Shown here piece after piece: positions 4,311 to 17,875 of a DNA stretch of 64,000 nucleotides. The notes below the pieces were generated by a model. That model made no database searches and was not told the origin of the DNA. It saw only the letters and a list, made by a program, of their open reading frames with translations. This stretch comes from Octopus vulgaris. Its lineage: Eukaryota. The stretch covers positions 63,612,001 through 63,676,000 of the forward strand of contig OX597826.1 of NCBI GenBank assembly GCA_951406725.2, given 5' to 3'. The stretch's first letter is position 1, and each line of letters begins with the position of its first letter. The position numbers and the translations under genes were made by a program.

Positions 4311-4432
4311 CATATGATGCATCATACAATTTGCTTTCTCAGCCAATTCTTATTCCAGCAACTATACATATGCATGAATGTACATTTATGTAAATGTATG
4401 TATATTACATATATGTATATATATATATACAC

Positions 4433-4779
4433 AAATATGAGAAAGAATCCACTATGTGGACGCTCTTACGTTAAAGATAGATCTGCAAGGGTCTCAACCA
4501 CTAAGAATTGTTCTCAAGAAAAATTTAGCACACTATGAACGTAAGCGCGCATGACAAATGAAAAATAACAAAAAATATAGATTAACCCCATACAATTGTT
4601 TCACTGTTAATAAATTATGCAATTTTACTTACACAATTAATCTACAGATCATCAGTGAGGTTCGTCATAAAATATAATTTGTCGAACTGCACACCAGATA
4701 TTAACATAAGGTCAAAAATACGAGTAGTTTGGCCAATTATATTCGCAGTTATATTCAAATGCTCTCGTTCTAGCACACC

Positions 4780-4783
<4 letters not shown>
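4433..4783 (-). mobile_element. Penelope-like/retrozyme-like non-coding fragment carrying the hammerhead
   Basis: CpG-retaining ~350-bp block bounded on both sides by (TA)n and containing the hammerhead. No RT or GIY-YIG coding sequence is visible, so the class is inferred. Confidence 0.5.
4584..4662 (-). ncRNA. Type I hammerhead ribozyme motif (Penelope/retrozyme-like)
   Basis: Minus strand reads AACCUCA-CUGAUGA-U[19-nt arm, GUAAAA loop, 19-nt arm; 17/19 paired]U-GAAA-CAAUUG-UA-UGGGGUU. Stem I is 7 bp, both core motifs are intact, stem III is the palindrome ACAAUUGU, and the cleavage triplet is GUA. Confidence 0.75.
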
Positions 4784-4818
<35 letters not shown>

Positions 4819-4851
4819 TATGTATATATATATATGTGTGTGTGTGTGTGT

Positions 4852-4894
<43 letters not shown>

Positions 4895-5850
4895 ATGCAG
4901 GCGTGCACACACACACTATGTATGTAACTCATTCTCTCCAGTTTCATTCCCTCTTAGTTTTCTCCTCCCTATCACTATAGAGTTTTATACATATGTACGT
5001 CCATACAAACATATCTATACATGCATACATATGTGTGTGTGTGTGTGTGTGTGCATGTGTGTGTGTATTACTTTTAATTGACAGAAATTACAAAGTAACT
5101 CTAGGGTTGAGAATTTTGTGCACGGCACCAACCAAAAGTTTGATGAATGCCATGCACGAAATGTATGTACTGATGTTTTGAGTTCTATCTATCCTGTTTG
5201 TACCATCAAACCTCCCCATCTCTCTCTCCCTGATTTTTCCTAGAGCATTCTCTCAGCTTCTTTCTCTCCATTACTATTTATCAAGCTCTCACTCTATTTC
5301 TCTCTCATCCTTATTATCTTCATCGGTTTCTTACATTTTTCAGCTTTGTCAAAACAATGTTGTTTACAAAAGCTGAAAGCCTGCAATAATAGCTGGAAGA
5401 TTTTCCTTAAACAATAAAAGACCACCGCAGAAACCAAATCGCTCATCTACCCATCCACCAATCAACTGCATTGAATATAAAATAATACACACAATAAATG
5501 GCAGGAAGATGAAGTGATGTGATTAATTAAAGGCAATTGTTCTATCTCTGCTTTCAGCGAATGAATGAGGAAGAAAGAGGTAAGGAAAGTGGGGGAAAGA
5601 TGGAAGAGAGTCAAGGGTGATTAGAGTTATCTTCAGAGATGGGGAAGAGAAAAAGGCAGCTTCTAGCAGAGGAGCTGTTGACATTGTATATCTATCTATA
5701 CACAAAGGCCATCCTATTTTTATTTTCAGATTATCATTTTATCTTTTATCTTTTACTTGCAAAAGTCATTGGACTGCAGCCACATTGCAGTACCACAATG
5801 AAGGGTTTTGTCAAAGGTCAATCCCAGTGCTTTTTTTGGGTTTTTTTTAA

Positions 5851-6060: not shown

Positions 6061-6530
6061 TTAAAGTCTGGTGCTTATTCTATCAATCTCTTTTGCCAAA
6101 ACCACTAAATTATGGAGAACACGAGGAAGGAAAGAAGGAAGAAAGAGAAGTGAGGAGGGAGAGAAGAGAGTAGGAAGAGGAAAGACAGGGAGAGGATGAA
6201 GGAGAGAGATGAGGAGAGGGGCTAGGAGAAGGGAAGAGAAAAGAGAGAGGAAGCTGAGAAAGAGACAAGTGGTAGGGAAGGACATAAACACAAAACACAC
6301 AGAAATACAAACACATACACATGATGGGATTCCACACAGTTTCCTTCTACCAAATTCACTTACAAGACATTGATTAGCCCAGGGCTATGGTAGAAGTTTC
6401 TTGCCAAAGGTGCCATATAGTGGATCTGAACCTGAAATCATGTAGCAGCAAAGTAAGCTTCTTAACCACACAGCCGTGCCCATGGCTACTGCAATGATGA
6501 CATTATCCAAAAGTATTCTCACATTTTCAA

Positions 6531-6741
6531 CCCTTTAGCATTGAGATTACTTTGTCAAATGTAATGTTTATATATTCACATTATTTTGAATTACTCATGC
6601 ATTATCTTGTAACTTTCAGATTTCAATGCGATTGCTTATTTTGACATTGTTGGCTAGGTGTGAGAGTCTGGATCTGGCCAGTTTGAACATAAAACAGGAG
6701 ATATATTTGGGCCAGATATGGTTGGTTTAAATACTAATGGG
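6531..6741 (-). mobile_element. piggyBac-like MITE, opposite orientation to 5851-6060
   Basis: CCCTTTAG...CTAATGGG|TTAA termini; interior is the reverse complement of the 15801-16020 family. Confidence 0.65.
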
Positions 6742-6840
6742 TTAAGACAGTAGGATGTAAATTCTGGGATATTTTGCTATTATTTCTAGCTGGTTGAGTA
6801 ACTACGCACTTACTCCCTCAACTACTTATCTATTCACTGA

Positions 6841-7135
6841 CTGGATTGGAGTGTTACTGTCATAGAAAGAAATATTGTGACGATAAACAGTTTGTTTACT
6901 ACCACCAAAGACAATGTCGTGGCTATGAAAAGGACTGTTAACTGTCACCAGAGACAATGCTGAGGCTATAATCAGTTCATTTAATGTAATCAGAGACAGC
7001 ATCGTGGCCATGACAGTTTGTTTACTGTTATCAGAGGTAGTGTTGTAACCATAAACAGTTTGTCTGCAGTCATTGGAGGCAGTGTAGTGACAATAAACAA
7101 AACAGCTTAGTGTTATTTGAAGCAGTGTTAGAGTC
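6841..7135. repeat. Degenerate ~42-bp minisatellite, 6-7 units
   Basis: Unit starts at 6883, 6925, 6968, 7010, 7051 and 7093; consensus approximately ATAAACAGTTTGTTTACTGTCATCAGAGGCAGTGTTGTGGCC. Confidence 0.75.
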
Positions 7136-7320
7136 ATTCATAACTATAAACAGGACAGGTAACCCTCACTCACTGACTCATCTACCAGGCTGTAAAGAAA
7201 CAACAGAAGCAGATAATTGCTAGACTACAATAAAACATTGTCTTTAAATCTTGTCTTTATATGAACAAGCTAGTGAGATATGTAATTTGGGAGATTTCTT
7301 TGAATCAGAAACACAATCTG

Positions 7321-7551
7321 TTTCTTTATTACCCACAAGGGACTAAACATAGAGGGGACAAACAAGGACAGACAAACGGATTAAGTCGATTACATTGACC
7401 CCAGTACGTAACTGGTACTTAATTTATCGACCCCGAAAGGATGAAAGGCAAAGTTGACCTCGGCGGAATTTGAACTCAGAACGTAACGGCAGACGAAATA
7501 CGGCTATGCATTTCGCCCAGTGTGCTAACGGTTCTGCCAGCTCACATCACC
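7321..7551 (-). mobile_element. tRNA-related SINE, family A (young subfamily)
   Basis: Near-identical to 16152-16381, 23301-23530, 31750-31969 and 62180-62396; B-box-like GAGTTCAAATTCC; 3' end GGGTAATAAAGAAA. Confidence 0.85.
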
Positions 7552-8591
7552 AACAAAAACAACACTTTAACGTTCACAAGGGCCAGACAGAATCTGTTTG
7601 GTAGATCTACAGCCAGGTGCCCTTCTGGTCACCAACCCTCATCTGTTTCTCATTAAGGTAATATTTCCCAATGATCAGATAGATTTGTATGGAAGACTGG
7701 AAACAAAGAACAGCACTTGTATGATGAAAGAGAAGAATAAGTAGTGAGCTTTGTTGTACACCTTTCTTCCACCAGGATCTTTTACATGAACAAATTGCCT
7801 TAATCTCGACTCTACTTTAACCTTCTTTTATGTTTCTCTGAATAATTCTTGAGACAATCAATTTCTTTGATATCAACAAATACAAAGTAAGGTTGTTTGT
7901 TCAGTATTCTTCGCAAATTACTGAATTAGCAGCAATTATGGATCCATATTCTAGAACAAACTCAAACTGCAATCTATCTCAATAGCATCCAGTACTAGCT
8001 TGTCGATGGTTCACTACACCATAACACCTTGATTATTCTGCTTATGTAAAAGAAAGAAAGAAAGGAAGGAAGGAAGGAAGGAAAGAAAGAAAGGAAAGAA
8101 AGAAAGAAAGAAAGGAAGGAAAGAAAGAGAGAAAGAAAGAAAAAATAAAGAGAGAGAGAGAGAGAGAGAAAGAAAGAAAGAAAAAGAGAAAGAAAAAAGG
8201 GAGAGAGACGTGAGGAGGGAGAGGAGAGAAGAGAGAAGGAAGAGGAAAGACAGGGAGAGGAGGAAGGAGAGAGGAGAGGAAGGAGAGGAGAGGGGAAGGA
8301 GAGAGGAGGAAGAGGAGAGATGAGGAAAGGAGCTAGGAGAAGAGGAAGAGAAAAGAGAGAGGAAGCTGAGAAAGAGACAGACTGACAGAAACAAAAACTC
8401 TGAGTGTGTGTGCGTGTGTTTGAGTGTGTGTGTGTGTGTGAATAGTATGAGCATGACTGTTTTATGTGTGCATGTGTGCATGCATCTACTTCTGTACATA
8501 TGCGTCTATGCACTCGTGCACCTGTAATCACAGAAGAGAGAGAGAGAGAGTGAGTTTGAGTGTCAGTGAAAATCAGAGGAAATTAACTCAC

Positions 8592-8754
8592 CTGGCTGTG
8601 AAAGTTTAAGAAGAGATGTATAAACATCTTGACAGTCTCTTTCACGTGGGACGATAAATGTGATAGCCATAAAGTTTTTGTATTTGATGTAAAGTGGGCT
8701 CCCCGCTGTCGTTATAGGATGTTTCTCTACACTTCCTATGTACATGTGAAGGAT
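8592..8754 (-). CDS. MTMR6: Myotubularin-related protein (MTMR6/7/8 group), next coding exon (probable exon 3), PH-GRAM C-terminal part
   Basis: Encodes ILHMYIGSVEKHPITTAGSPLYIKYKNFMAITFIVPRERDCQDVYTSLLKLSQP, matching recalled MTMR6 ILHHHIASVEK...CKNF...FIVPRERDCHDIYNSLLQLS. TTTTTTTCAG|ATC acceptor and CAG|GTGAGT donor at 8591; 163 nt, phase 0/1, in frame with the 32-kb exon. Confidence 0.94.
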
Positions 8755-8799
8755 CTGAAAAAAACAACAAGAAAAACATCATTACTAATGATGATGATG

Positions 8800-8833
<34 letters not shown>

Positions 8834-9536
8834 GTGTACTGCACACATCCTACGCAGAACACTTTCCATACAATAACCATCAGAGAGAGCATCATAACAA
8901 ATCACAGCACATACCCAAGGCACACAGAGCTGCGCTCGGTAGTGAAGTGAAAGCACGCTATAAAAATAAAACTACTGAATAATAATAATAATAATAATAA
9001 TAATGATGATAATAATAATACTGATGATGATGATAAGAATATATGATTACTAACAGTAGTGATGATGATAACAAAATTACAGTAGTAATACTAACAATCA
9101 TAAGAATAAAAGGTACTAAAAGCAATGATGATGATGATGACAGTAATGGTGGTGGTGGTGGTGGTGAAGATGATGACAACAACAGTGATAATACTAACAA
9201 TGGTAAAAATATAAGATTCTATTAGCAATGATAATGATGATGATGATGGTTGTGATAGTGGTGGTGATGATGATGATGACAATGATGATGTAGTGGTGGT
9301 GGTAAGGATGATGTTGATGGTGATGACGATATTCACAACACAAATATTTCTTATATGATTATTAAACATTTCCTTGTGACCTTATTATTACACATACAGG
9401 CTTAAAAGCATTTTCATTGAGCAAATTGTAGTTATTGATAAAAAAATTTTAATTAGAGAGTTTTTTGTTTTAGCATACAACTATATAATAACTCATCCAG
9501 AATGACTGAATATACCTATTCAGTTTTAGTTATGTA

Positions 9537-10025
9537 CTAGCAGTAAGAGCCCCTGGAGCAGACATGATGCTCGCTGTGAATTTTAAAAAATTCCTGCCAA
9601 TTTGTGAAAGATATTGTCGAAAATATGTCATCTTGAATTTGAACGCGATTTCCCAAATTGGCATGATTTTATCGATTTTTTCTGATGGTAAGGTATTGCA
9701 TGGTAAACTAACGTCAGAATTAAGTTTCTTAGGGTAACATTAAGCTTCACCATGAGTTTGGCCAAAATCGATTGCAAGTTGCGAAAACTACAACAGAAAA
9801 TGTGTTGCAAATAAAAAGCTTGGATTCTCGACCCCATGTCGAATTTATTAAATTTTTTCAGAACTGGGGGAACTTTTCAAAATTTTCGCTGCGTTAGTTT
9901 TGAATTATGACATTGGGCTAAGTGTGTGTCAAGTTTCATCAGAATCGGTTGAAAGCCGTGGTCAGGGTGAGGGTACAAGCAAACAGACACACAGACAGAC
10001 AAACTGCCGTTTATATAGAGAGAGA
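9537..10025 (-). mobile_element. Non-autonomous Helitron
   Basis: Minus strand begins A|TCTCTCTCTATATAAA and ends with a GAGCA-N7-TGCTC hairpin followed by CTAG|T. Inserted between A and T with no TSD; (CAGA)n-like repeat near the 5' end. Confidence 0.75.
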
Positions 10026-10412
10026 TTTGTCGATACATAACTAAAACCCCTGGACTAACACAACAGAGAAAACATTACAACCAGGCAGCACCATCCACAC
10101 ATACTACATATCTTCTATTTTACTGTGGGGTGGCCATGTATCTCTTCAATATCAAGACTCCTGTGCTTGTTCCTCTATCATACTTTAACCCTCCAACACC
10201 TGGCATAAAGCCACTTCCCTCTGTCTAAAATATCATTCCCACTTTGTAAGCAACAAAAAACACTCAATACACACTATAAAATGATTGGCATTAGGAAGGT
10301 ATCCAGCTATAGGAACTGCGCAGAAGCAAGCATTGGAGCTTGAAGAAGTCCTGTTGCTCACTGGACCCTGTCAAACCATTCAACCCATGCTAGTACAGGA
10401 AACAGATATTAA

Positions 10413-10631
10413 CCCTTTCGTTACTGTATTTATTTTGAGATGCTCTGTTTCTTTCAATTATTTTAAATATAACAAAGAATTTAGTAAAATAACATAGTTA
10501 TCATTAAGCTAGTGTTAGGAATATAAATTGCAACTAAGGTTTGGTGGTATATTTTGATGCAAAACTTATGAAAACAAGACATTTGTACTACAGAGCCAGA
10601 GCCGGTTTTGGACATATTAGTAATGAAAGGG
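10413..10631. mobile_element. piggyBac-like MITE, second family
   Basis: TTAA|CCCTTTCGTTAC ... GTAATGAAAGGG|TTAA (12-bp TIR, 1 mismatch), inserted at the TTAA of an RTE tail. Relatives at ~13410-13630, ~32954-33855 (interrupted) and ~58505-58695. Confidence 0.75.
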
Positions 10632-11084
10632 TTAAATGATGATAATGATGATTACTCCAGTGGCTGTGCGGTGGGTAGCTTGCTTACCAACCACATGGTT
10701 CTGGGTTCAGTCCCACTGCATGGCACCTTGGACAAGTGTCTTCCATTATAGCCTTGGGCCCACCAAAGCCTTGTGACTGGATTTGGTAGGCAGAAACTGA
10801 AAGAAGCCCATCATATATATATATATGTTTGTGTGTCTGTGTTTGTACCCCCACCATCGCTTGACAACCAAAGTTGGTGTATTTACATCCCCGTAACCTA
10901 GCAGTAGACCAAAAGCAAGACATTTAGATAATATCCTTAGTCTTGGTTGGTCAGCTTGGGAATCCATCTGGAAAAAAGGTTGTTTCTGATAGGGCTCTAC
11001 AGAGGAAATACCAAATGGAAACTACTCCAATGACCCTCCCAGAAATAGTGGGTGGCAAAAATGAATGAATGGATGGAAATATAT

Positions 11085-11232
11085 GTTGCATGTCTGTGTA
11101 AAGTGCATAAAGAAGTGCCAAGCTGTAATTGTGGAGGGAACCTGTGGAAGGGGTAGACCCAGAAAGATGTGGGATGAAGTGATGAGAAAGAATCTTCTGA
11201 CACTGGGCTTCACTAAGGAAATGACAAGGACA
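11085..11232 (+). mobile_element. RTE LINE ORF C-terminal fragment
   Basis: CIKKCQAVIVEGTCGRGRPRKMWDEVMRKNL, homologous to 29566-29751. Confidence 0.75.
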
Positions 11233-11710
11233 TTTTATTCTTACGACTACATTATTTAATGTATCCTCTACTCTTTTTCACACTTTGGCTCTGTTCAGAG
11301 GGGAATTTAGCTGCTTTTTCAAGCTAGTATAGAAATCAAACAAGCTTTTTCACAATGGTACATCGAACAACTTGATGAAATTTGTAGCAGTATTGGCCAT
11401 AAAATTTACTATCGTAGAAAAAAATCTCAGACATTTTGTAGATTTTTGTCTGTATTTTCTAGAAAAATCCTCATTCATGTCTTAATTAGATCTTGATTAA
11501 TTATGCATAAGCCAGTTTTGTTGGAATCAGTAGATAAAGCGTCAATAAATAACTAAACAGTCTGCTTGAAACAAGATTCCATCTTATTATTCAAAACTTA
11601 CGGCCATAAGAGAAATTATTTAAAAGACTTCTGCTATAGAAAACTGTTCTCATTCAATGTGTAACAGAAGATAAGACTTAAAACAACAACAAAAACATAA
11701 ACAGCGCTGC

Positions 11711-11741
<31 letters not shown>

Positions 11742-11952
11742 ACACACATACACACACATGCACAAACAACACTCATGGAAATTCTATATATTTTGAAAAT
11801 TCTAACATAGTTTGATAGTTTATTGAAAACCAAGAAATTATACACATTTATGTATTTCTTATGCAAGATTCCTGATGTTGAATCATGTGTTGAAATAGAT
11901 ATTGTTATACTTGAGAGTGGTCATATTTTGCCAATTAAACACATGCACTATA

Positions 11953-12249
11953 TCTTTATATATAAAATTGAAGTTGTGTGTGTGAGACCCTGTCTCCTCC
12001 GATTTAGATTCCTAACTACTCCCACATTTTGCGGTGCAGTTTAACCAAAAGCGGGTATCTTATAGTCGTCATTCATATCGAGCCCTTCTGGGTATTAGCG
12101 TGCGTCTACGATGAGTCTACGATTTAAAAAAAAATTTACCATCATTTTTCCGCATTTTTTATGATTTTTGCTCGGGTTATATAAGGGAAGTAACCTTCTA
12201 AAAATGCTTATATAGATATTTCCCGAGCAACGTTGGGCGATACTGCTAG
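11953..12249 (+). mobile_element. Non-autonomous Helitron
   Basis: A|TCTTTATATATAAAA 5' end; CCCGAGCAACGTTGGG hairpin at 12222-12237; CTAG|T 3' end. Confidence 0.8.
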
Positions 12250-12278
12250 TATTTTATATTTGGTCTTCACCTCAACTT

Positions 12279-12643
12279 TATTACCTCTACCTTAGCGAAG
12301 ATGGAGGTATTGTTTGTTTGTTTGTCCATGGACAAGATATCTCAAGAACTGCTGGATGGATTTGGATGAAACTTTCAAGGATGTTTGGCCTCATGATTGG
12401 CACAAACTAATTAGCTTTTGGAATTGATCCAGTACCAGACAAGGATTCTGGATTATTTTTTTCTGTTTTTTTTTTTTTACTTCATTTTTGAGAGCGATCA
12501 GGTTCATTTTTTATTATTCTCATTCGTGAAAGCTATCAAGTTTATTTCAGATATTCTCATTTTAAAAATCAGCTCTGGTTAATTGTTGAGAGGACGGTGT
12601 TGCCTTGGTGGAGGTTTGTGTTCTCTGTGTACTCTTGCTAGTT
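12279..12643 (+). mobile_element. Helentron-associated (HINE/DINE-1-like) non-autonomous element
   Basis: 5' TTATTACCTCTACC with nearby inverted ATGGAGGTA, then a (TTTG)n microsatellite; 3' sub-terminal GGTGGAGGT, short hairpin and CTAGTT end. Confidence 0.6.
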
Positions 12644-15600
12644 ATTACTTTAGTTTCTTTGTCAAAGCTCTTTTGTCAACCATCTTGTGACTGCATCAGT
12701 GACTCTATAGTGCATGTGTTTAATTGATGAAATATGACCATTCTCAAATATAACAAATCAAACCTTGTGTCAGAATTAGAATAATAATACTACCACCACT
12801 GCTGCCACCACCACCACCATCATCATCATTATCATCAAGGCAGTGAACTGACAGGATCATTACTGTGCTGGACAAAATGCTTAGCAGTATTTCTTCTGGT
12901 TTTACAGTTTGATTTCAAATTCTGCCAAAATTAAGCTTTGCTTTTCATCTTTTCAGGGTCAGTGAAATAAGTACCAGTTCAGCACTGGGATTGATGTAAT
13001 TGACTAGATCCCTCCCCCAAAATTTCAGGCTTTTATGTCTATAGTAGAAAGGGTTTTTATTTACTGCCTTCATCTTTTTTAGAGATTTTCTACCAAACTA
13101 ATTTGATTATTATTATTATTATTATTATCATTATTATTATTATTATTACAATTATTAAGGCAGTAACCTGGTAGAATTGTTAACAAGTCGGATAAAATGC
13201 TTGGCGACATTTCTCCTGGCATTTCACATTCTAAGTTCAAATGCTGCAAGGTCAACTTTACATTTTATCCTTTTGGGGTTGATAAAGTCAAGTACTGGGG
13301 TTGATGTAAATGACTTCCCTTCCCCCTCAAAATTGTTGGACTTGTGCCAAAATTAGAAAGAATTATTATCATTATGAAGTAAAAGAAAAGGAAAAAATTT
13401 TCCCTAATATCAACACTTTTGTTGCCACATTTCTGTTGAAGTGCAATACTGTTTTTTCGATTAATTTTGAAAATAATGAAAAATTTATTGAAATCACTTT
13501 GTCAGTGGGTGTTTGGAACATGATTTAACATGAAATTTTGACAGGAGGTTTTAATTTAGATTGCTTTAAACAGAGAATTCATATCACATAATTAAGAGAA
13601 GGCTCAGGCAGGGTGATGTCAAAAGTGTTAAGCCAAAGATTCAATATCAGAGAAGCAGTCCCAAAATTCACTGTCTTTTAACAGCTTCTGGACAGTAATT
13701 TCCATTCCTTCTTAATGTTTCTCACATGAAACAATTGTTGTATTGCCATTGTCAGCATCAGCATCATCATCATCATCATCATCATTTAATGTCTGTTTTC
13801 CATGCTAGCATGGGTTGGACAGCTTGACAGGAGCTGGCAAGCCAGAGGACTGCACCAAACTCCACTGTCTGTTTTGGCATGGTTTTTACAACTGGATGCC
13901 CTTCCTAATGCCAACCACTTTACAGAGTGGATTATATATTACATTCCAAAAACAATAATTAGTGAAGGCATGTGTCACAGTGGTTTGGGTGTTGCACTAA
14001 CAATCGCAAGATCATGGTTTCAATTTCTGGAGTGAAACATTTTATTTCAGTTCACTCAGCAGTAAATGAATAACCCTACGATGGAATGGTATCCCATTTC
14101 CAGGAAGTGCTATGTTCTTGGCGACCATGGAAACCAAGTGATTGGCTGGCCTTATAAATCCTAGAACTCCAGGGGTTACAGTCACTTTTTTACTTTTAAG
14201 GAATGATTAGTCATTTATTCAATCATTCGTGTATTCACCCTCTTACATCATGTAACCCTTTATGACAGTCACCCAAGTCAATGTGAGAGACTCTAGGCAG
14301 TAGATCAACCTGCAAGAAATAGCAACCAAATCTCCTTTAAATCACATCTTATCATCTTCCACAAGGAATGGATTCATTAAATCATGTAAGCTTAAATATG
14401 TCTAAAAAGAACAAGACATTAACAGCTGAAATGTATTTGATTATAGGTCTACTCAATCATAGTTAACCTGGAGCTAAACAGCAACATGACAACAATAAAT
14501 CTTTTAGACTTAGCACTCACAACACTCTAAAGGAAACAGCTGCAAGTTACTGTTCTGTGTTCCTGGTAAATGTTGACCACAGTTTATGTTTTGTTCCTGA
14601 CTTCAATTTCCTACTTGAGCTACTTCAGATTTCAAAAGATCAATAAACTGTAAATAAGTACAACGCCAGAGCTACACCATCATCATCATCTTCATCATTA
14701 ATGTCCATTTTTCCAAACTACCGTGGATCACATAGAATTTGTTGAGGCAGATTTTCTACTTCTGGATGCCCCTCCTGTTGCCAAACCCTCACCTGCTTCC
14801 AGGCAAGATATTTCCCCTTAGTCAGACATTGCTTATCATTGAAAACTGTAAACAAACAACATTGCTTGTATGACACTGGTGCTTGCTTTTGCAACCATCT
14901 CATGATGTCCAGATGGATGCATACATGCAAACACACTCTTTTAGTTTTTGTCAAACTAATCCACTTACAAGGCTTTGGTTGGCTTTGGAGCTACTATAGA
15001 AGACACTTGCTCGTGTATCACACAGTAGGATTGGATTTAAGACAACATGGTCTTGAAGCAAGCTTCTTAATCACACAGCCATGCCAATACGACAAACAAG
15101 CATTATATTAACTTGTAGTACTTGGCTCACATCTTTCTTAATGCAAAAAGCTATGAGAGACTAGTTTCCTATCCAAAGAGTGCAAACTGTTAATGGAGAA
15201 AAGGCTGGGATAAATACCAGTACACACTTTCTTTAATATACACAGCATTTCACAGAAGTTGATAATCAACCCAAGTCTGTGGCATTTGGAAAAACAAAAG
15301 TTGAATAAAACCTATTGAGTGTGCAATATTAAATGTTAACTTATGTGAGAGCAGTCGCACATATATATACAAGTGAGTTGAAAGTACAGAAGAGTTATTA
15401 AAAATATTAGAATATGTGTGGAGCTGATAGACATTCAGCTTGTCTTGGCAACAGTATCTTTTGATGCTGGAAGCACACATACACACATGCATGCAGAAAT
15501 ACATAGATAGAATGAGAAAGAAGGAGAGGATGGAGGGAAGGAGAGGGATTGAGAGAATGAAAGAGAGAGGAAAAGGAAGAAGGGAGAGAATGAGAGAAAT

Positions 15601-15800
15601 ATTGCTTTCAAATTTTGGCACAAGGCCAGCAATTTCAGGAGAGGGGCTAAGTTGGTTACATCGACCCCCAGGGCTCAACTGTGATATATTTCATTGACCT
15701 CAAAAGGATGAAAAGCAGAATTTGAAATCAAAACAATGACATACGAAATGACATTAAGCATTTTGTCCAGCATGCTGATTCTACCAGTTCTTGACCTTAA

Positions 15801-16020
15801 CCCTTTGGTATTTAAACCAGCCATATCCAGCCAAAATAGCTAATCTGTTTTGTGTTCAAACTGACCAGATCCAGGCTCTCACACCTACCCTACAATGTTA
15901 TTCTACATTAAGTAATTGCACCATCAACAACATTGAAGATATGAGATAATGCATGATTAATTCAAATCAATGGGAATCAATAGGCATTATGTTTGATTGA
16001 ATAATCTGAACACTAAAGGG
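15801..16020 (+). mobile_element. piggyBac-like MITE
   Basis: TTAA|CCCTTTGG ... CTAAAGGG|TTAA; several copies in the window. Confidence 0.7.
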
Positions 16021-16151
16021 TTAAATGAGAGAAGCATCAAAAAAACATGTCATGTTAAATAAGCTTTGAATCAGTAATGCCAAATAGGTAGTGCCGAAAT
16101 GGCTGTGCCAAGACACCATCTCATATCTGACAGGAATGGCAGTATATGTCT

Positions 16152-16381
16152 CTTTCTTTACTACCCACAAGGGGCTAAACACAGAGAGGACAAACAATGA
16201 CAGACAAACAGATTAAGTCGATTATATCGACCCCAGTACGTAACTGGTACTTATTTAATCGACCCCGAAAGAATGAAAGGCAAAGTCGACCTCGGCGGAA
16301 TTTGAACTCAGAACGTAGCGGCAGACGAAATACCGATAAGCATTTCGCCTGGCGTGCTAACGATTCTGCCAGCTCGCCGCC
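16152..16381 (-). mobile_element. SINE family A, full length
   Basis: Full head GGCGGCGAGCTGGCAGAATCG; CpG-rich; TSD-like AATGGC..TATATG on both flanks. Confidence 0.9.
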
Positions 16382-17571
16382 TTAAATGGCGATATATGGT
16401 TTGGTTGTATATCAGACCCATGGAAAAACAGGCCTGTCGAAATGCTCCCACTCTAAATATACTATATACAAACCATCGTTACTACACCAAGAATACCTTC
16501 ACCCAGCCCACTTGCATCCCATTCGTGTATATTGAGTGGATAGAAAGAAATGAATGAATGAAGATTACACAGTAATAGCTATTACTTAAAACTGGCAGAG
16601 AAGACATTTATTGTCAGAATAATTCTCCAAAGACATTACCATTCACTGCCATAATAGTAATAATAACCATATATTTCTATTCATTTAACATGAAAAAGAC
16701 AAACAAAGAGTGAATGCAGTAACAAGAGGTTATAGAGAGATAAAAAGCATTGAAACAAATATTTAATTACACAAGAATTTTAAAATAAAAACACATACAC
16801 AAACACAAAACAAAGCAAAGAACAAACAAATGATTAATCCCACTTGAAACAATTCATTGCTTGTTTTTCATGTTCTTCAGAATTTTTTTTATTGCCTAAT
16901 CATTTTCTTTTCTTTTTTTCCACTTTTTACTTTTGTCAATTGTAATTGTGAAAATTTTCAGAAAAAAAAAAAAAACTGCAACTGTCAATAAACTAAAACT
17001 CTAAAAACCAAAACCTTAATTCCAGTTGAATAGCGTTCTGTTTGAATAGAGAGAGCAATACTTCAAAACTAAATTCAAGACATAATGACTTGCCAACAGA
17101 CAAGGAGACTGAATGGAAAATTCTTGGCTGTCTTAAGTACATTACTTATTTTACAATAAAGCTTTCTTAGATGTAGATACTACTACTACTACTACTACCA
17201 TCATTATCATCATCGTTATTATAAAGTGTTGAGTTGGTAGAATTGTTAGCATGTCACACACGTTGCTTAACAATATTTTGTCTGTCTTTATGTTCTGAGT
17301 TCAAATTCCACCTAGATCAACTTAGCCTTTCATGCTTTAGGGGTTGATAAAATAAGCACCAGTTGAGCACTAGTGGTCAATGTAATCAACTTAGCCCCTC
17401 CCAATGAAATTGCTGGACTTATGCCAAAATTTGAAACCATTATTAATATTATTATTACCATCAGCATCCATGATTACTTTCATTATAAAGGTGTCGAGCT
17501 GGTAGAATCATTAGCTTGCCACACAAAATGCTTAGTAAATGAGGAGTAAATAGAAAAGCAAATGACATATG

Positions 17572-17875
17572 TGGAGGCACAATGGCCCAGTAGTTAGGGC
17601 AGCGGACTCGCGATCGGAGGATCGCGGTTTCGATTCCCAGACCGGGCATTGCGTGTGTTAATTGAGCGAAAACACCTAAAGTTCCACAAGGCTCCGGCAG
17701 GGGGTGGTGGCGACCCCTGTTGTACTCTTTCGCCCCAACTTTCTCTTACTCTTTCTTCCTGTTTCTTGGGTAACGCTGCGATGGACTGGCGTCCCGTCCA
17801 CCTGGAGGGAACACATACACCACAGAAACCGGGCCCATGAGCCTGGCTAGGCTTGAAAAGGGCGCATTAAAAAAG
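17572..17875 (+). mobile_element. tRNA-derived SINE with V-domain-like core, young insertion
   Basis: A-box TGGCCCAGTAGTTAGG, B-box GGTTTCGATTCCC, V-SINE-like CTGCGATGGACTGGCGTCCCGTCC, and a perfect 12-bp TSD AAATGACATATG (17560-17571, 17876-17887). Confidence 0.85.

What the first reader, a model, noticed from the sequence alone, without database searches (positions are those of the whole stretch)
4584..4662. Intronic hammerhead ribozyme on the sense strand of the MTMR pre-mRNA
Seen: the minus strand folds into a type I hammerhead. It has a 7-bp stem I (AACCUCA/UGGGGUU), intact CUGAUGA and GAAA cores, an unusually long stem II (19-nt arms, 17 paired), a minimal palindromic stem III (ACAAUUGU) and a GUA site, with the predicted cut between 4591 and 4590. 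Established: minimal type I hammerheads with palindromic stem III typify Penelope-like elements and retrozymes and often work as dimers. Inference: it lies ~3.9 kb past the exon donor in the transcribed orientation, so it could cut the intron or mark a cephalopod retrozyme family. Caveats: stem II closes with U-U instead of the usual G-C, and there is no tandem partner copy in the window.
Basis: partly seen in the sequence, partly recalled or inferred. Interest (0 to 1): 0.8.

Follow-up and report, generated by a model that had tools for sequence, protein, structure and literature searches.

The report
Hammerhead retrozyme copy in myotubularin intron
The self-cutting RNA (hammerhead) motif is really there, but it is one truncated copy of a widespread 534-base repeat, likely spread by Penelope-type retroelements, that sits in an intron and is predicted to cut poorly without a partner copy, so it is likely a passenger rather than a regulator of the gene.

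Summary
The motif at 4584-4662 (minus) is a real type I hammerhead on the sense strand of an 11.8-kb MTMR6/7/8 intron. It is not locus-specific. It lies in a 356-nt, 5'-truncated copy (4782-4427) of a dispersed non-coding repeat (family A, 533-534-nt unit; 98 exact hits to a 24-nt ribozyme motif), inserted in (TA)n. A younger sister family B (2,134 exact hits) forms arrays of up to 13 hammerheads. Across families A, B and C all 7 stem I pairs covary while the core stays nearly fixed. Insertions show the Penelope-like (PLE) signature: 24 of 24 end at one of two sites about 115 nt apart, and 14 of 24 carry a 5' inversion. Hydra-type PLEs in the same genome have the same long-stem-II hammerhead design and a 113-120-nt tail, so they are the likely mobiliser; no direct parent was found. 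The ribozyme is predicted to fold actively as a dimer, not alone. No partner lies within the 114 kb scanned, and this copy shows no sign of host selection. Verdict: a new, apparently undescribed cephalopod member of the non-LTR retrozymes; intron cutting is unsupported.

The parts
4427..4782 (-). 5'-truncated copy of retrozyme family A (unit positions 180-534 of a 534-nt unit), ending at the family's first fixed 3' end
   Evidence: 92% to a natural unit from L018 over 357 nt; 40 of 40 scored genome candidates match at 89-100%; 15 of 356 positions differ from the column majority
4584..4662 (-). type I hammerhead ribozyme motif
   Evidence: sequence and fold; covariation
4656..4662 (-). stem I, 5' strand (AACCUCA)
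   Evidence: 7 of 7 stem I pairs show two-sided changes across families A, B, C
4649..4655 (-). catalytic core CUGAUGA (positions 3-9)
   Evidence: position 7 varies (T41, G5, A1, C1 of 48 copies); the only shared core variant is U4C in 4 copies
4603..4648 (-). long stem II: U10.1-U11.1 mismatch, 17 pairs, GUAAAA loop at 4628-4623
   Evidence: folds; pair counts
4592..4602 (-). GAAA core and palindromic stem III ACAAUUGU (dimer-forming in prediction)
   Evidence: cofold minimum-energy structure equals the active dimer, -45.6 kcal/mol
4590..4593 (-). GUA cleavage triplet; predicted cut between 4591 and 4590
   Evidence: position 17 is A26, C16, T4, G2 of 48 copies
4584..4590 (-). stem I, 3' strand (UGGGGUU)
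4784..4835 (.). (TA)n microsatellite at the 5' junction (target site)
4381..4429 (.). TA-rich repeat at the 3' junction (target site)
8592..8754 (-). MTMR6/7/8-type exon (PH-GRAM domain); its donor opens the ~11.8-kb host intron
   Evidence: Pfam PF21098 E 4.7e-20

Best explanation
This is the hammerhead of a lone, 5'-truncated copy of a 534-nt non-coding repeat family (a non-LTR retrozyme) that likely spreads using a Penelope-like element's enzyme, most likely a Hydra-clade one, and that sits in a (TA)n tract of an MTMR intron where it is predicted to be mostly inactive. Mechanism. (1, inferred) Head-to-tail source copies are transcribed; two adjacent hammerheads pair through the palindromic stem III and cut out unit-length RNA, which likely circularises. 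(2, genomic signature shown, enzyme inferred) A PLE endonuclease/RT nicks (TA)n DNA and starts reverse transcription inside the RNA at two fixed sites about 115 nt apart, 163 and about 280 nt past the ribozyme cut. Priming on both strands gives the 5' inversions. (3, inferred) Running round the template gives partial tandems and arrays of up to 13 hammerheads; stopping early gives copies like this one. (4, shown) After insertion, copies decay neutrally, ribozyme included; the structure is kept by selection in the replicating lineage. (5, predicted) In the MTMR pre-mRNA the single ribozyme lacks its partner, so it cuts slowly or not at all.
For: Repeat family: 2,154 first-look candidates, 40 of 40 scored at 89-100%; 98 exact hits to a 24-nt ribozyme motif and 168 to a 27-nt 3' motif, 0 for the reversed controls. 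Unit of 533-534 nt, no long ORF in the unit. In 24 insertions picked only by the 3' motif (30 loci, 6 merged as the same insertion), 11 end at u529-534 and 13 at u98-129 of the next unit; 14 have a 5' inversion, and in 11 of those one arm ends at each site; 22 run into (TA)n, judged by eye. This matches the pLTR, inversion and tail signature of PLEs (PMC8557442) and the two internal RT start sites shown in vitro (PMC11167929). Covariation: 6 pairs with two-sided changes in 56 family A motifs. In 15 motifs from A, B and C, 12 of 18 pairs covary, score 0.445 versus 0.249 shuffled, 0 of 500 shuffles, slid controls <=0.12. Family B: 2,134 exact hits, arrays with 531-535-nt spacing, G10.1-C11.1 closing pair. 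Units are more alike within an insertion than between insertions (B 99.3-100 vs 92.2-98.8% means; A 94.4 vs 88.5%). Hydra-type PLEs here (YRDD, CxCx5C, CxxC, CxH) carry long-stem-II hammerheads, many with the same GAAAC-AAUU-GUA. Their two ends lie 35-39 nt (9 of 17) and 148-159 nt (7 of 17; 1 at 133) past the cut. Dimer fold -45.6 versus -34.4 for two active monomers; P(active monomer) 0.002; stem I probability 0.01 inside the 356-nt copy. Private substitutions: 2.10% in the ribozyme versus 2.08% outside in 47 other copies; 10 of 47 also have none in the ribozyme, as this copy does.
Against: No autonomous element with a pLTR clearly homologous to family A was found among 112 PLE-bearing loci (L084-L115, L181-L260). 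A-versus-Hydra tail similarity is at chance (423 of 1,000 shuffles) and the ribozyme-region similarity is weak (6 and 28 of 1,000, core included; 15 and 70 of 1,000 for the part after the cut). So the Hydra assignment rests on design and tail length. A Neptune-like family also targets (TA)n but has a 40-nt tail and no hammerhead that I could find. Circular RNA is not shown: homogenised source arrays would also give higher within-array identity. In the anole PLE, hammerhead cleavage was dispensable for insertion and needed protein. Eight of nine Xenopus retrozyme dimers did not cleave in vitro. Conversely, axolotl HHR_Amex2 cleaved 22% per hour as a monomer, so the lone copy may have some activity. 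Covariation counts are not corrected for relatedness, and the 15 rows were hand-picked for diversity.
Confidence: 0.82

Rival explanations
1. The unit is the pLTR (3' UTR) of an autonomous PLE that I did not find, and this copy is an ordinary 5'-truncated PLE end rather than a free-standing retrozyme.
For: This is the case for family D in the same genome, whose long-stem-II hammerhead lies about 600 nt after a Hydra-type endonuclease ORF. Only the best 150 of 6,136-17,647 PLE candidates were scored per search.
Against: Wherever family A or B copies extend 5', unit follows unit or an inverted unit, never a shared ORF end. tblastn with the Neptune-like ORF found only scattered, unshared fragments near A/B loci. 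The one pair 2.8 kb apart is an assembly duplicate across a gap.
Confidence: 0.08
2. The host has co-opted this copy: it cuts MTMR pre-mRNA co-transcriptionally and tunes expression, like the conserved intronic hammerheads of amniotes.
For: Sense orientation; intact core; 0 of 79 private substitutions in the ribozyme versus 7 of 277 outside; a U-U type motif can cleave as a monomer.
Against: 10 of 47 other copies also have zero private changes and 36 of 48 keep an intact core. Monomer fold is poor and there is no partner in 114 kb. The copy is about 4% from the family majority, so it is a fairly young insertion.
Confidence: 0.05
3. The tandem arrays arise mainly by DNA-level satellite amplification (unequal crossing over) after single insertions, and the ribozyme plays no part in making templates.
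For: This is the scenario discussed in bioRxiv 10.64898/2026.07.22.740005; within-array homogeneity fits it.
Against: A 13-hammerhead array still ends in an inverted arm, with one arm at each of the two family 3' sites and TA-rich flanks (L082), as expected from one priming event. Compensatory changes in all stems show long-term selection on the RNA fold.
Confidence: 0.04
4. A chance fold in AT-rich DNA.
For: No Rfam match; non-canonical stem II.
Against: 0 strict hits in 60 shuffles; cross-family covariation with a nearly fixed core.
Confidence: 0.01

Closest known systems
Metazoan non-LTR retrozymes, especially axolotl Rtz_353 with HHR_Amex2 (PMC7229834; passages and section 15 read)
   Same: Non-coding tandem unit with one type I hammerhead each; 2-bp stem III with tetraloop; U-U at the base of helix II; dimers favoured; low GC.
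   Different: Unit 534 nt versus 330-350; stem II has 17 pairs with internal mismatches; circular RNA and cleavage not shown here; strict (TA)n targeting with PLE tails.
Vertebrate non-LTR retrozymes as non-autonomous PLEs (bioRxiv 10.64898/2026.07.22.740005; parts 1-3 of 5 read, supplements closed)
   Same: PLE-derived, monomers dispersed, often in introns (44% in X. tropicalis), co-occurring with autonomous PLEs.
   Different: That study sampled no mollusc in its text (31 vertebrates, 3 insects, 1 coral) and argued from co-occurrence and pLTR homology. Here the insertion junctions themselves carry the two-site tail and inversion signature, but no homologous pLTR was found.
Hydra-clade PLEs, e.g. 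Hydra-1_Obim (PMC8557442; passages, section 11, supplement rows)
   Same: (TA)n targeting, hammerhead near the 3' end, fixed ends. The Hydra-type families in this genome share the long stem II, the palindromic loop III and a 100-120-nt tail.
   Different: Family A has no ORF. The hammerhead listed for Hydra-1_Obim has a short 7-bp stem II. PLE tails in the paper are 30-40 bp.
Poseidon PAc of Anolis (PMC11167929; parts 1-2 of 4 read)
   Same: Two internal RT start sites define the tail; both strands are cut and extended at AT-rich DNA.
   Different: PAc is autonomous, Penelope/Poseidon clade; its hammerhead overlaps the ORF start and is protein-assisted.
Ultraconserved intronic hammerheads of amniotes (title seen in the reference list of PMC7229834; details recalled)
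   Same: Type I hammerhead on the sense strand of a large intron.
   Different: Those are single-copy, deeply conserved and fast monomers (recalled). This one is a young multicopy insertion with no sign of selection.

Membership tests
Type I hammerhead ribozyme | CUGANGA and GAAA cores, NUH site, three helices with stem I open | tested here: met
Type I hammerhead ribozyme | Compensatory changes in helices with conserved core | tested here: met
Type I hammerhead ribozyme | G10.1-C11.1 pair | tested here: not met
   U-U in this copy and in most of family A (10.1 is T in 45 of 48); G-C in family B; U-U is a known active variant
Type I hammerhead ribozyme | Match to an Rfam hammerhead model | tested here: not met
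   probably because of the long stem II (inferred)
Type I hammerhead ribozyme | Self-cleavage | not testable with these tools
   needs an in vitro assay
Non-LTR retrozyme | Non-coding unit with one type I HHR per head-to-tail repeat | tested here: met
   533-535-nt spacing; 5 of 48 A insertions have two complete HHRs in direct tandem; B arrays of up to 13 HHRs; no long ORF
Non-LTR retrozyme | Two consecutive HHR units at this locus ('active' by the 2026 preprint's rule) | tested here: not met
   single partial unit; this copy is a monomer derivative
Non-LTR retrozyme | Expressed as unit-length circular RNA | tested here: inconclusive
   only contigs from runs guessed to be RNA; end-to-start joints also occur in the likely DNA run
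PLE-mobilised element | Partial tandems (pLTR-like), 5' inversions, optional tail at one end | tested here: met
   24 of 24 end at one of two sites; 14 of 24 inverted
PLE-mobilised element | (TA)n target preference | tested here: met
   22 of 24 by eye; window flanks
Derivative of a Hydra-clade PLE | Sequence homology to the pLTR of an autonomous Hydra element | tested here: inconclusive
   same HHR design and tail length; tail similarity at chance and HHR-region similarity weak; only a sample of families seen
Autonomous PLE | RT and GIY-YIG ORF | tested here: not met
   none in the unit or shared upstream of copies
Host-domesticated intronic HHR | Purifying selection on this copy | tested here: inconclusive
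   0 of 79 private changes is not unusual (10 of 47 other copies)
Host-domesticated intronic HHR | Orthologous conservation in other species | not testable with these tools
   no relative genomes are held for G000

The most novel reading that the evidence does not exclude
This genome holds a young, massively amplifying retrozyme clan (families A, B, C) with a distinct long-stem-II hammerhead shared with Hydra-clade PLEs. Whole arrays of up to 13 hammerhead units are written into (TA)n sites in one twin-primed event by PLE reverse transcriptase rolling round a 534-nt circular RNA. The insertion junctions would then be direct genomic proof of the rolling-circle retrozyme model, and family B with a near-identical active PLE would be a ready system to reconstitute it.
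Probability: 0.45. Interest if true: 0.62.

Novelty: new member of a known kind. Interest (0 to 1): 0.4.

Why it matters
As an MTMR regulator it probably does not matter. As a marker of a family it has moderate value. How animal retrozymes move is still argued from co-occurrence and phylogeny. Here a non-coding hammerhead repeat carries the two-site tail and inversion marks of PLE reverse transcription, and a very young sister family and intact PLEs sit in the same genome, which makes the circle-template and partner questions testable. The 17-pair stem II variant escapes Rfam, so such motifs are probably undercounted.

Tried and rejected
Rfam: no hammerhead match. Autonomous parent at G000:C6:126.49 Mb (two HHRs 2.8 kb apart): a 98% duplicate across an assembly gap, no ORF. 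Two-ORF Neptune-like PLE (781 aa, RT plus GIY-YIG, 98-99% identical copies): no similarity to the unit, 40-nt tail, no canonical HHR seen in its pLTR. Youngest Hydra-type family (717-aa ORF, ~2.59-kb tandems): short-stem HHR variant, ~70-nt tail, no homology. An intron inside the ribozyme (GTAAGT in loop II to an AG about 100 nt on): no such joint among the joints listed for 4 runs of contigs; not excluded. Pile-up of 5' truncations at the ribozyme cut: 1 of 24 exactly at u372 and 5 of 24 within u372-401; too few to call. Expression: no RNA holder listed; runs laid were contigs with a guessed RNA label; no conclusion. The tail D comparison used a mis-extracted stretch and is discarded (family D tail length comes). 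Pfam does not recognise the Hydra-type ORF; the assignment rests on motifs and by-eye likeness to the published alignment, not on a tree. Earlier scan findings: 3 look-ups, nothing returned. No covariance model was built; orientation bias in introns was not tested (no annotation).

Full report
1. On the minus strand, 4662-4584 reads as a type I hammerhead: 7-bp stem I, CUGAUGA, a U-U mismatch, a 17-pair stem II, GAAA, a palindromic ACAAUUGU stem III and a GUA site, with the cut between 4591 and 4590. It folds better than 199 of 200 shuffles. A pairing-aware scan finds only this motif in the window and no strict hit in 60 shuffles. Rfam does not detect it. The exon at 8754-8592 is MTMR6/7/8-type. 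The next exon found is about 11.8 kb on and phase-compatible, and phosphatase exons follow on the same strand. The motif is therefore sense and intronic.

2. It is a transposon copy. The surrounding 341 nt match 40 of 40 scored candidates out of 2,154 at 89-100%. Exact motifs give 98 and 168 hits with 0 for reversed controls, a lower bound on copy number. Copies with two hammerheads set the unit at 533-534 nt; the unit has no long ORF. The window copy covers unit positions 180-534 (4782-4427) between TA tracts.

3. The junctions carry the PLE signature. In 24 insertions chosen only by a 3' motif, all end at one of two sites: the unit end (11) or 98-129 nt into the next unit (13). Fourteen have an inverted 5' piece, and in 11 of these the two arms end at the two different sites. 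Twenty-two run into (TA)n by eye. The selection cannot see ends upstream of the motif. Craig et al. describe partial tandems, inversions and a one-sided tail for PLEs (PMC8557442 and its preprint; passages, section 11 and supplement rows). Frangieh et al. show that the tail lies between two internal RT start sites and that both strands are cut and extended (PMC11167929, parts 1-2 of 4).

4. The ribozyme fold has been under selection in the lineage. In 56 family A motifs, 6 of 25 pairs change on both sides; position 7 and position 17 vary as the NUH and CUGANGA rules allow. A sister family B, first seen in contigs, has 2,134 exact hits, many in arrays with 531-535-nt spacing. One array holds 13 hammerheads with units 98.7-100% identical and ends in an inverted arm. 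B has a fully changed stem I (UUUUGG/CCAAAA) and a G-C closing pair. A third family C (~450-nt unit) is more distant. Across 15 hand-picked A, B and C motifs, all 7 stem I pairs and 12 of 18 pairs covary. These counts do not correct for relatedness. Inserted copies decay neutrally: 2.10% private changes in the ribozyme and 2.08% outside.

5. The likely mobiliser. The genome has intact PLEs. A two-ORF Neptune-like family targets (TA)n but has a 40-nt tail and no hammerhead that I could find. Hydra-type families (motifs) carry a long-stem-II hammerhead, often with the same GAAAC-AAUU-GUA, and tails of about 100 nt (family D) and 113-120 nt (L212 type). Against a firm assignment: no pLTR homologous to family A in 112 PLE loci examined, tail similarity at chance, and weak similarity around the ribozyme. 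Each protein search scored only 150 of 6,136-17,647 candidates.

6. Activity in the intron is doubtful. The active monomer fold has probability 0.002, and inside the 356-nt copy stem I is disfavoured (0.01). Two copies cofold into the active dimer as their minimum-energy state. No second copy lies in the window or in the 40 kb downstream and 10 kb upstream that I fetched; this does not cover the last exons of the gene. The copy's clean ribozyme (0 of 79 private changes) is matched by 10 of 47 other copies. On the other side, axolotl HHR_Amex2 has the same U-U and 2-bp stem III and cleaves 22% per hour as a monomer and far better as a dimer (PMC7229834, passages and section 15), so slow cleavage is possible. 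Minimal PLE hammerheads are weak in vitro (PMC4209133, parts 1-2 of 4), and 8 of 9 Xenopus dimers did not cleave (bioRxiv 10.64898/2026.07.22.740005, parts 1-3 of 5).

7. Mechanism. Shown: repeat family, unit, two fixed 3' ends, inversions, (TA)n targets, covariation, neutral decay. Inferred: dimer cleavage of tandem transcripts, a circular template, PLE-driven twin priming, a Hydra-clade partner. Higher identity within than between insertions fits a single monomer template but also homogenised source arrays. RNA evidence was not obtainable.

8. Novelty. The class is known, and its PLE origin has been argued in a 2026 preprint. I found no description of a cephalopod retrozyme: 'hammerhead'+'octopus' (20 of 51 listed, only Craig et al. 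relevant), 'retrozyme'+'cephalopod', 'octopus'+'Penelope'+'hammerhead ribozyme', and an octopus repeat annotation (PMC13282606, parts 1-2 of 3 and its supplement, 0 hits for hammerhead, ribozyme or retrozyme). Repbase, Dfam, that paper's Zenodo library and the preprint's supplements were not visible and could already hold the repeat. Verdict: new member of a known kind, with an unusual long stem II; interest 0.4.

Noticed in passing
G000, e.g. L082 (C1:40,931.5-40,938.7 kb) and L061-L080: Family B retrozyme: 2,134 exact motif hits, 534-nt arrays of up to 13 hammerheads at 98.7-100% unit identity, canonical G-C closing pair; looks recently active and is the better experimental target.
   Followed up: partly
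L261:1332-1410 (-) = G000:C30:12,975,245-12,975,323: A single family A copy with a fully Watson-Crick stem I and G-U closing pair, about 0.75 kb 3' of a chitin-binding peritrophin-A exon (Pfam CBM_14) on the same strand. A 21-nt junction motif unique to this locus comes from the loose end of a 451-nt contig at depth 285 in run X1 (RNA is a guess), and run X2 of another organism label has a near-identical loose end. It may lie in an expressed 3' UTR or intron; monomer fold is also poor.
   Followed up: partly
L231-L260, e.g. G000:C1:57.209-57.222 Mb: Very young Hydra-type PLE: 150 of 150 scored hits 100% identical over 100 aa, 717-aa ORF, ~2.59-kb head-to-tail tandems, hammerhead with CCGAAGA core, ~70-nt tail.
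   Followed up: partly
L104-L107, e.g. G000:C6:133,343-133,350 kb: Young Neptune-like PLE with a separate 479-aa ORF1 overlapping a 781-aa RT/GIY-YIG ORF, ~500-nt pLTRs, no canonical hammerhead seen.
   Followed up: partly
L109:~4860-4900 (+) and L111: An autonomous PLE (RT plus GIY-YIG) whose 3' UTR holds a short-stem-II hammerhead with the same U-U closure, CCGAAGA core and AGUACU palindrome.
   Followed up: no
L166-L180; L172:2516-2612 (-), L172:1008-1104 (+); L216:~3787 (-); L228:842-1115 (+): Further hammerhead repeat families (family C, ~450-nt unit, and others 63-65% like family A), so the clan is larger than the three families analysed.
   Followed up: partly
window 4633-4625 (-): A GTAAGT donor-like hexamer in the stem II apex is kept in most family A and many family B copies; no matching splice joint was listed in contigs.
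   Followed up: partly
unit positions ~175-190, window ~4782-4770 (-): A TTTGGCGCGC motif (E2F-site-like, recalled) is conserved between families A and B in otherwise AT-rich sequence and may be part of an internal promoter; this copy is truncated at it and has it mutated.
   Followed up: no
L081 = G000:C6:126,492,050-126,497,530: A 2.7-kb segment duplicated at 98% on either side of an N gap; probably an assembly artefact.
   Followed up: yes
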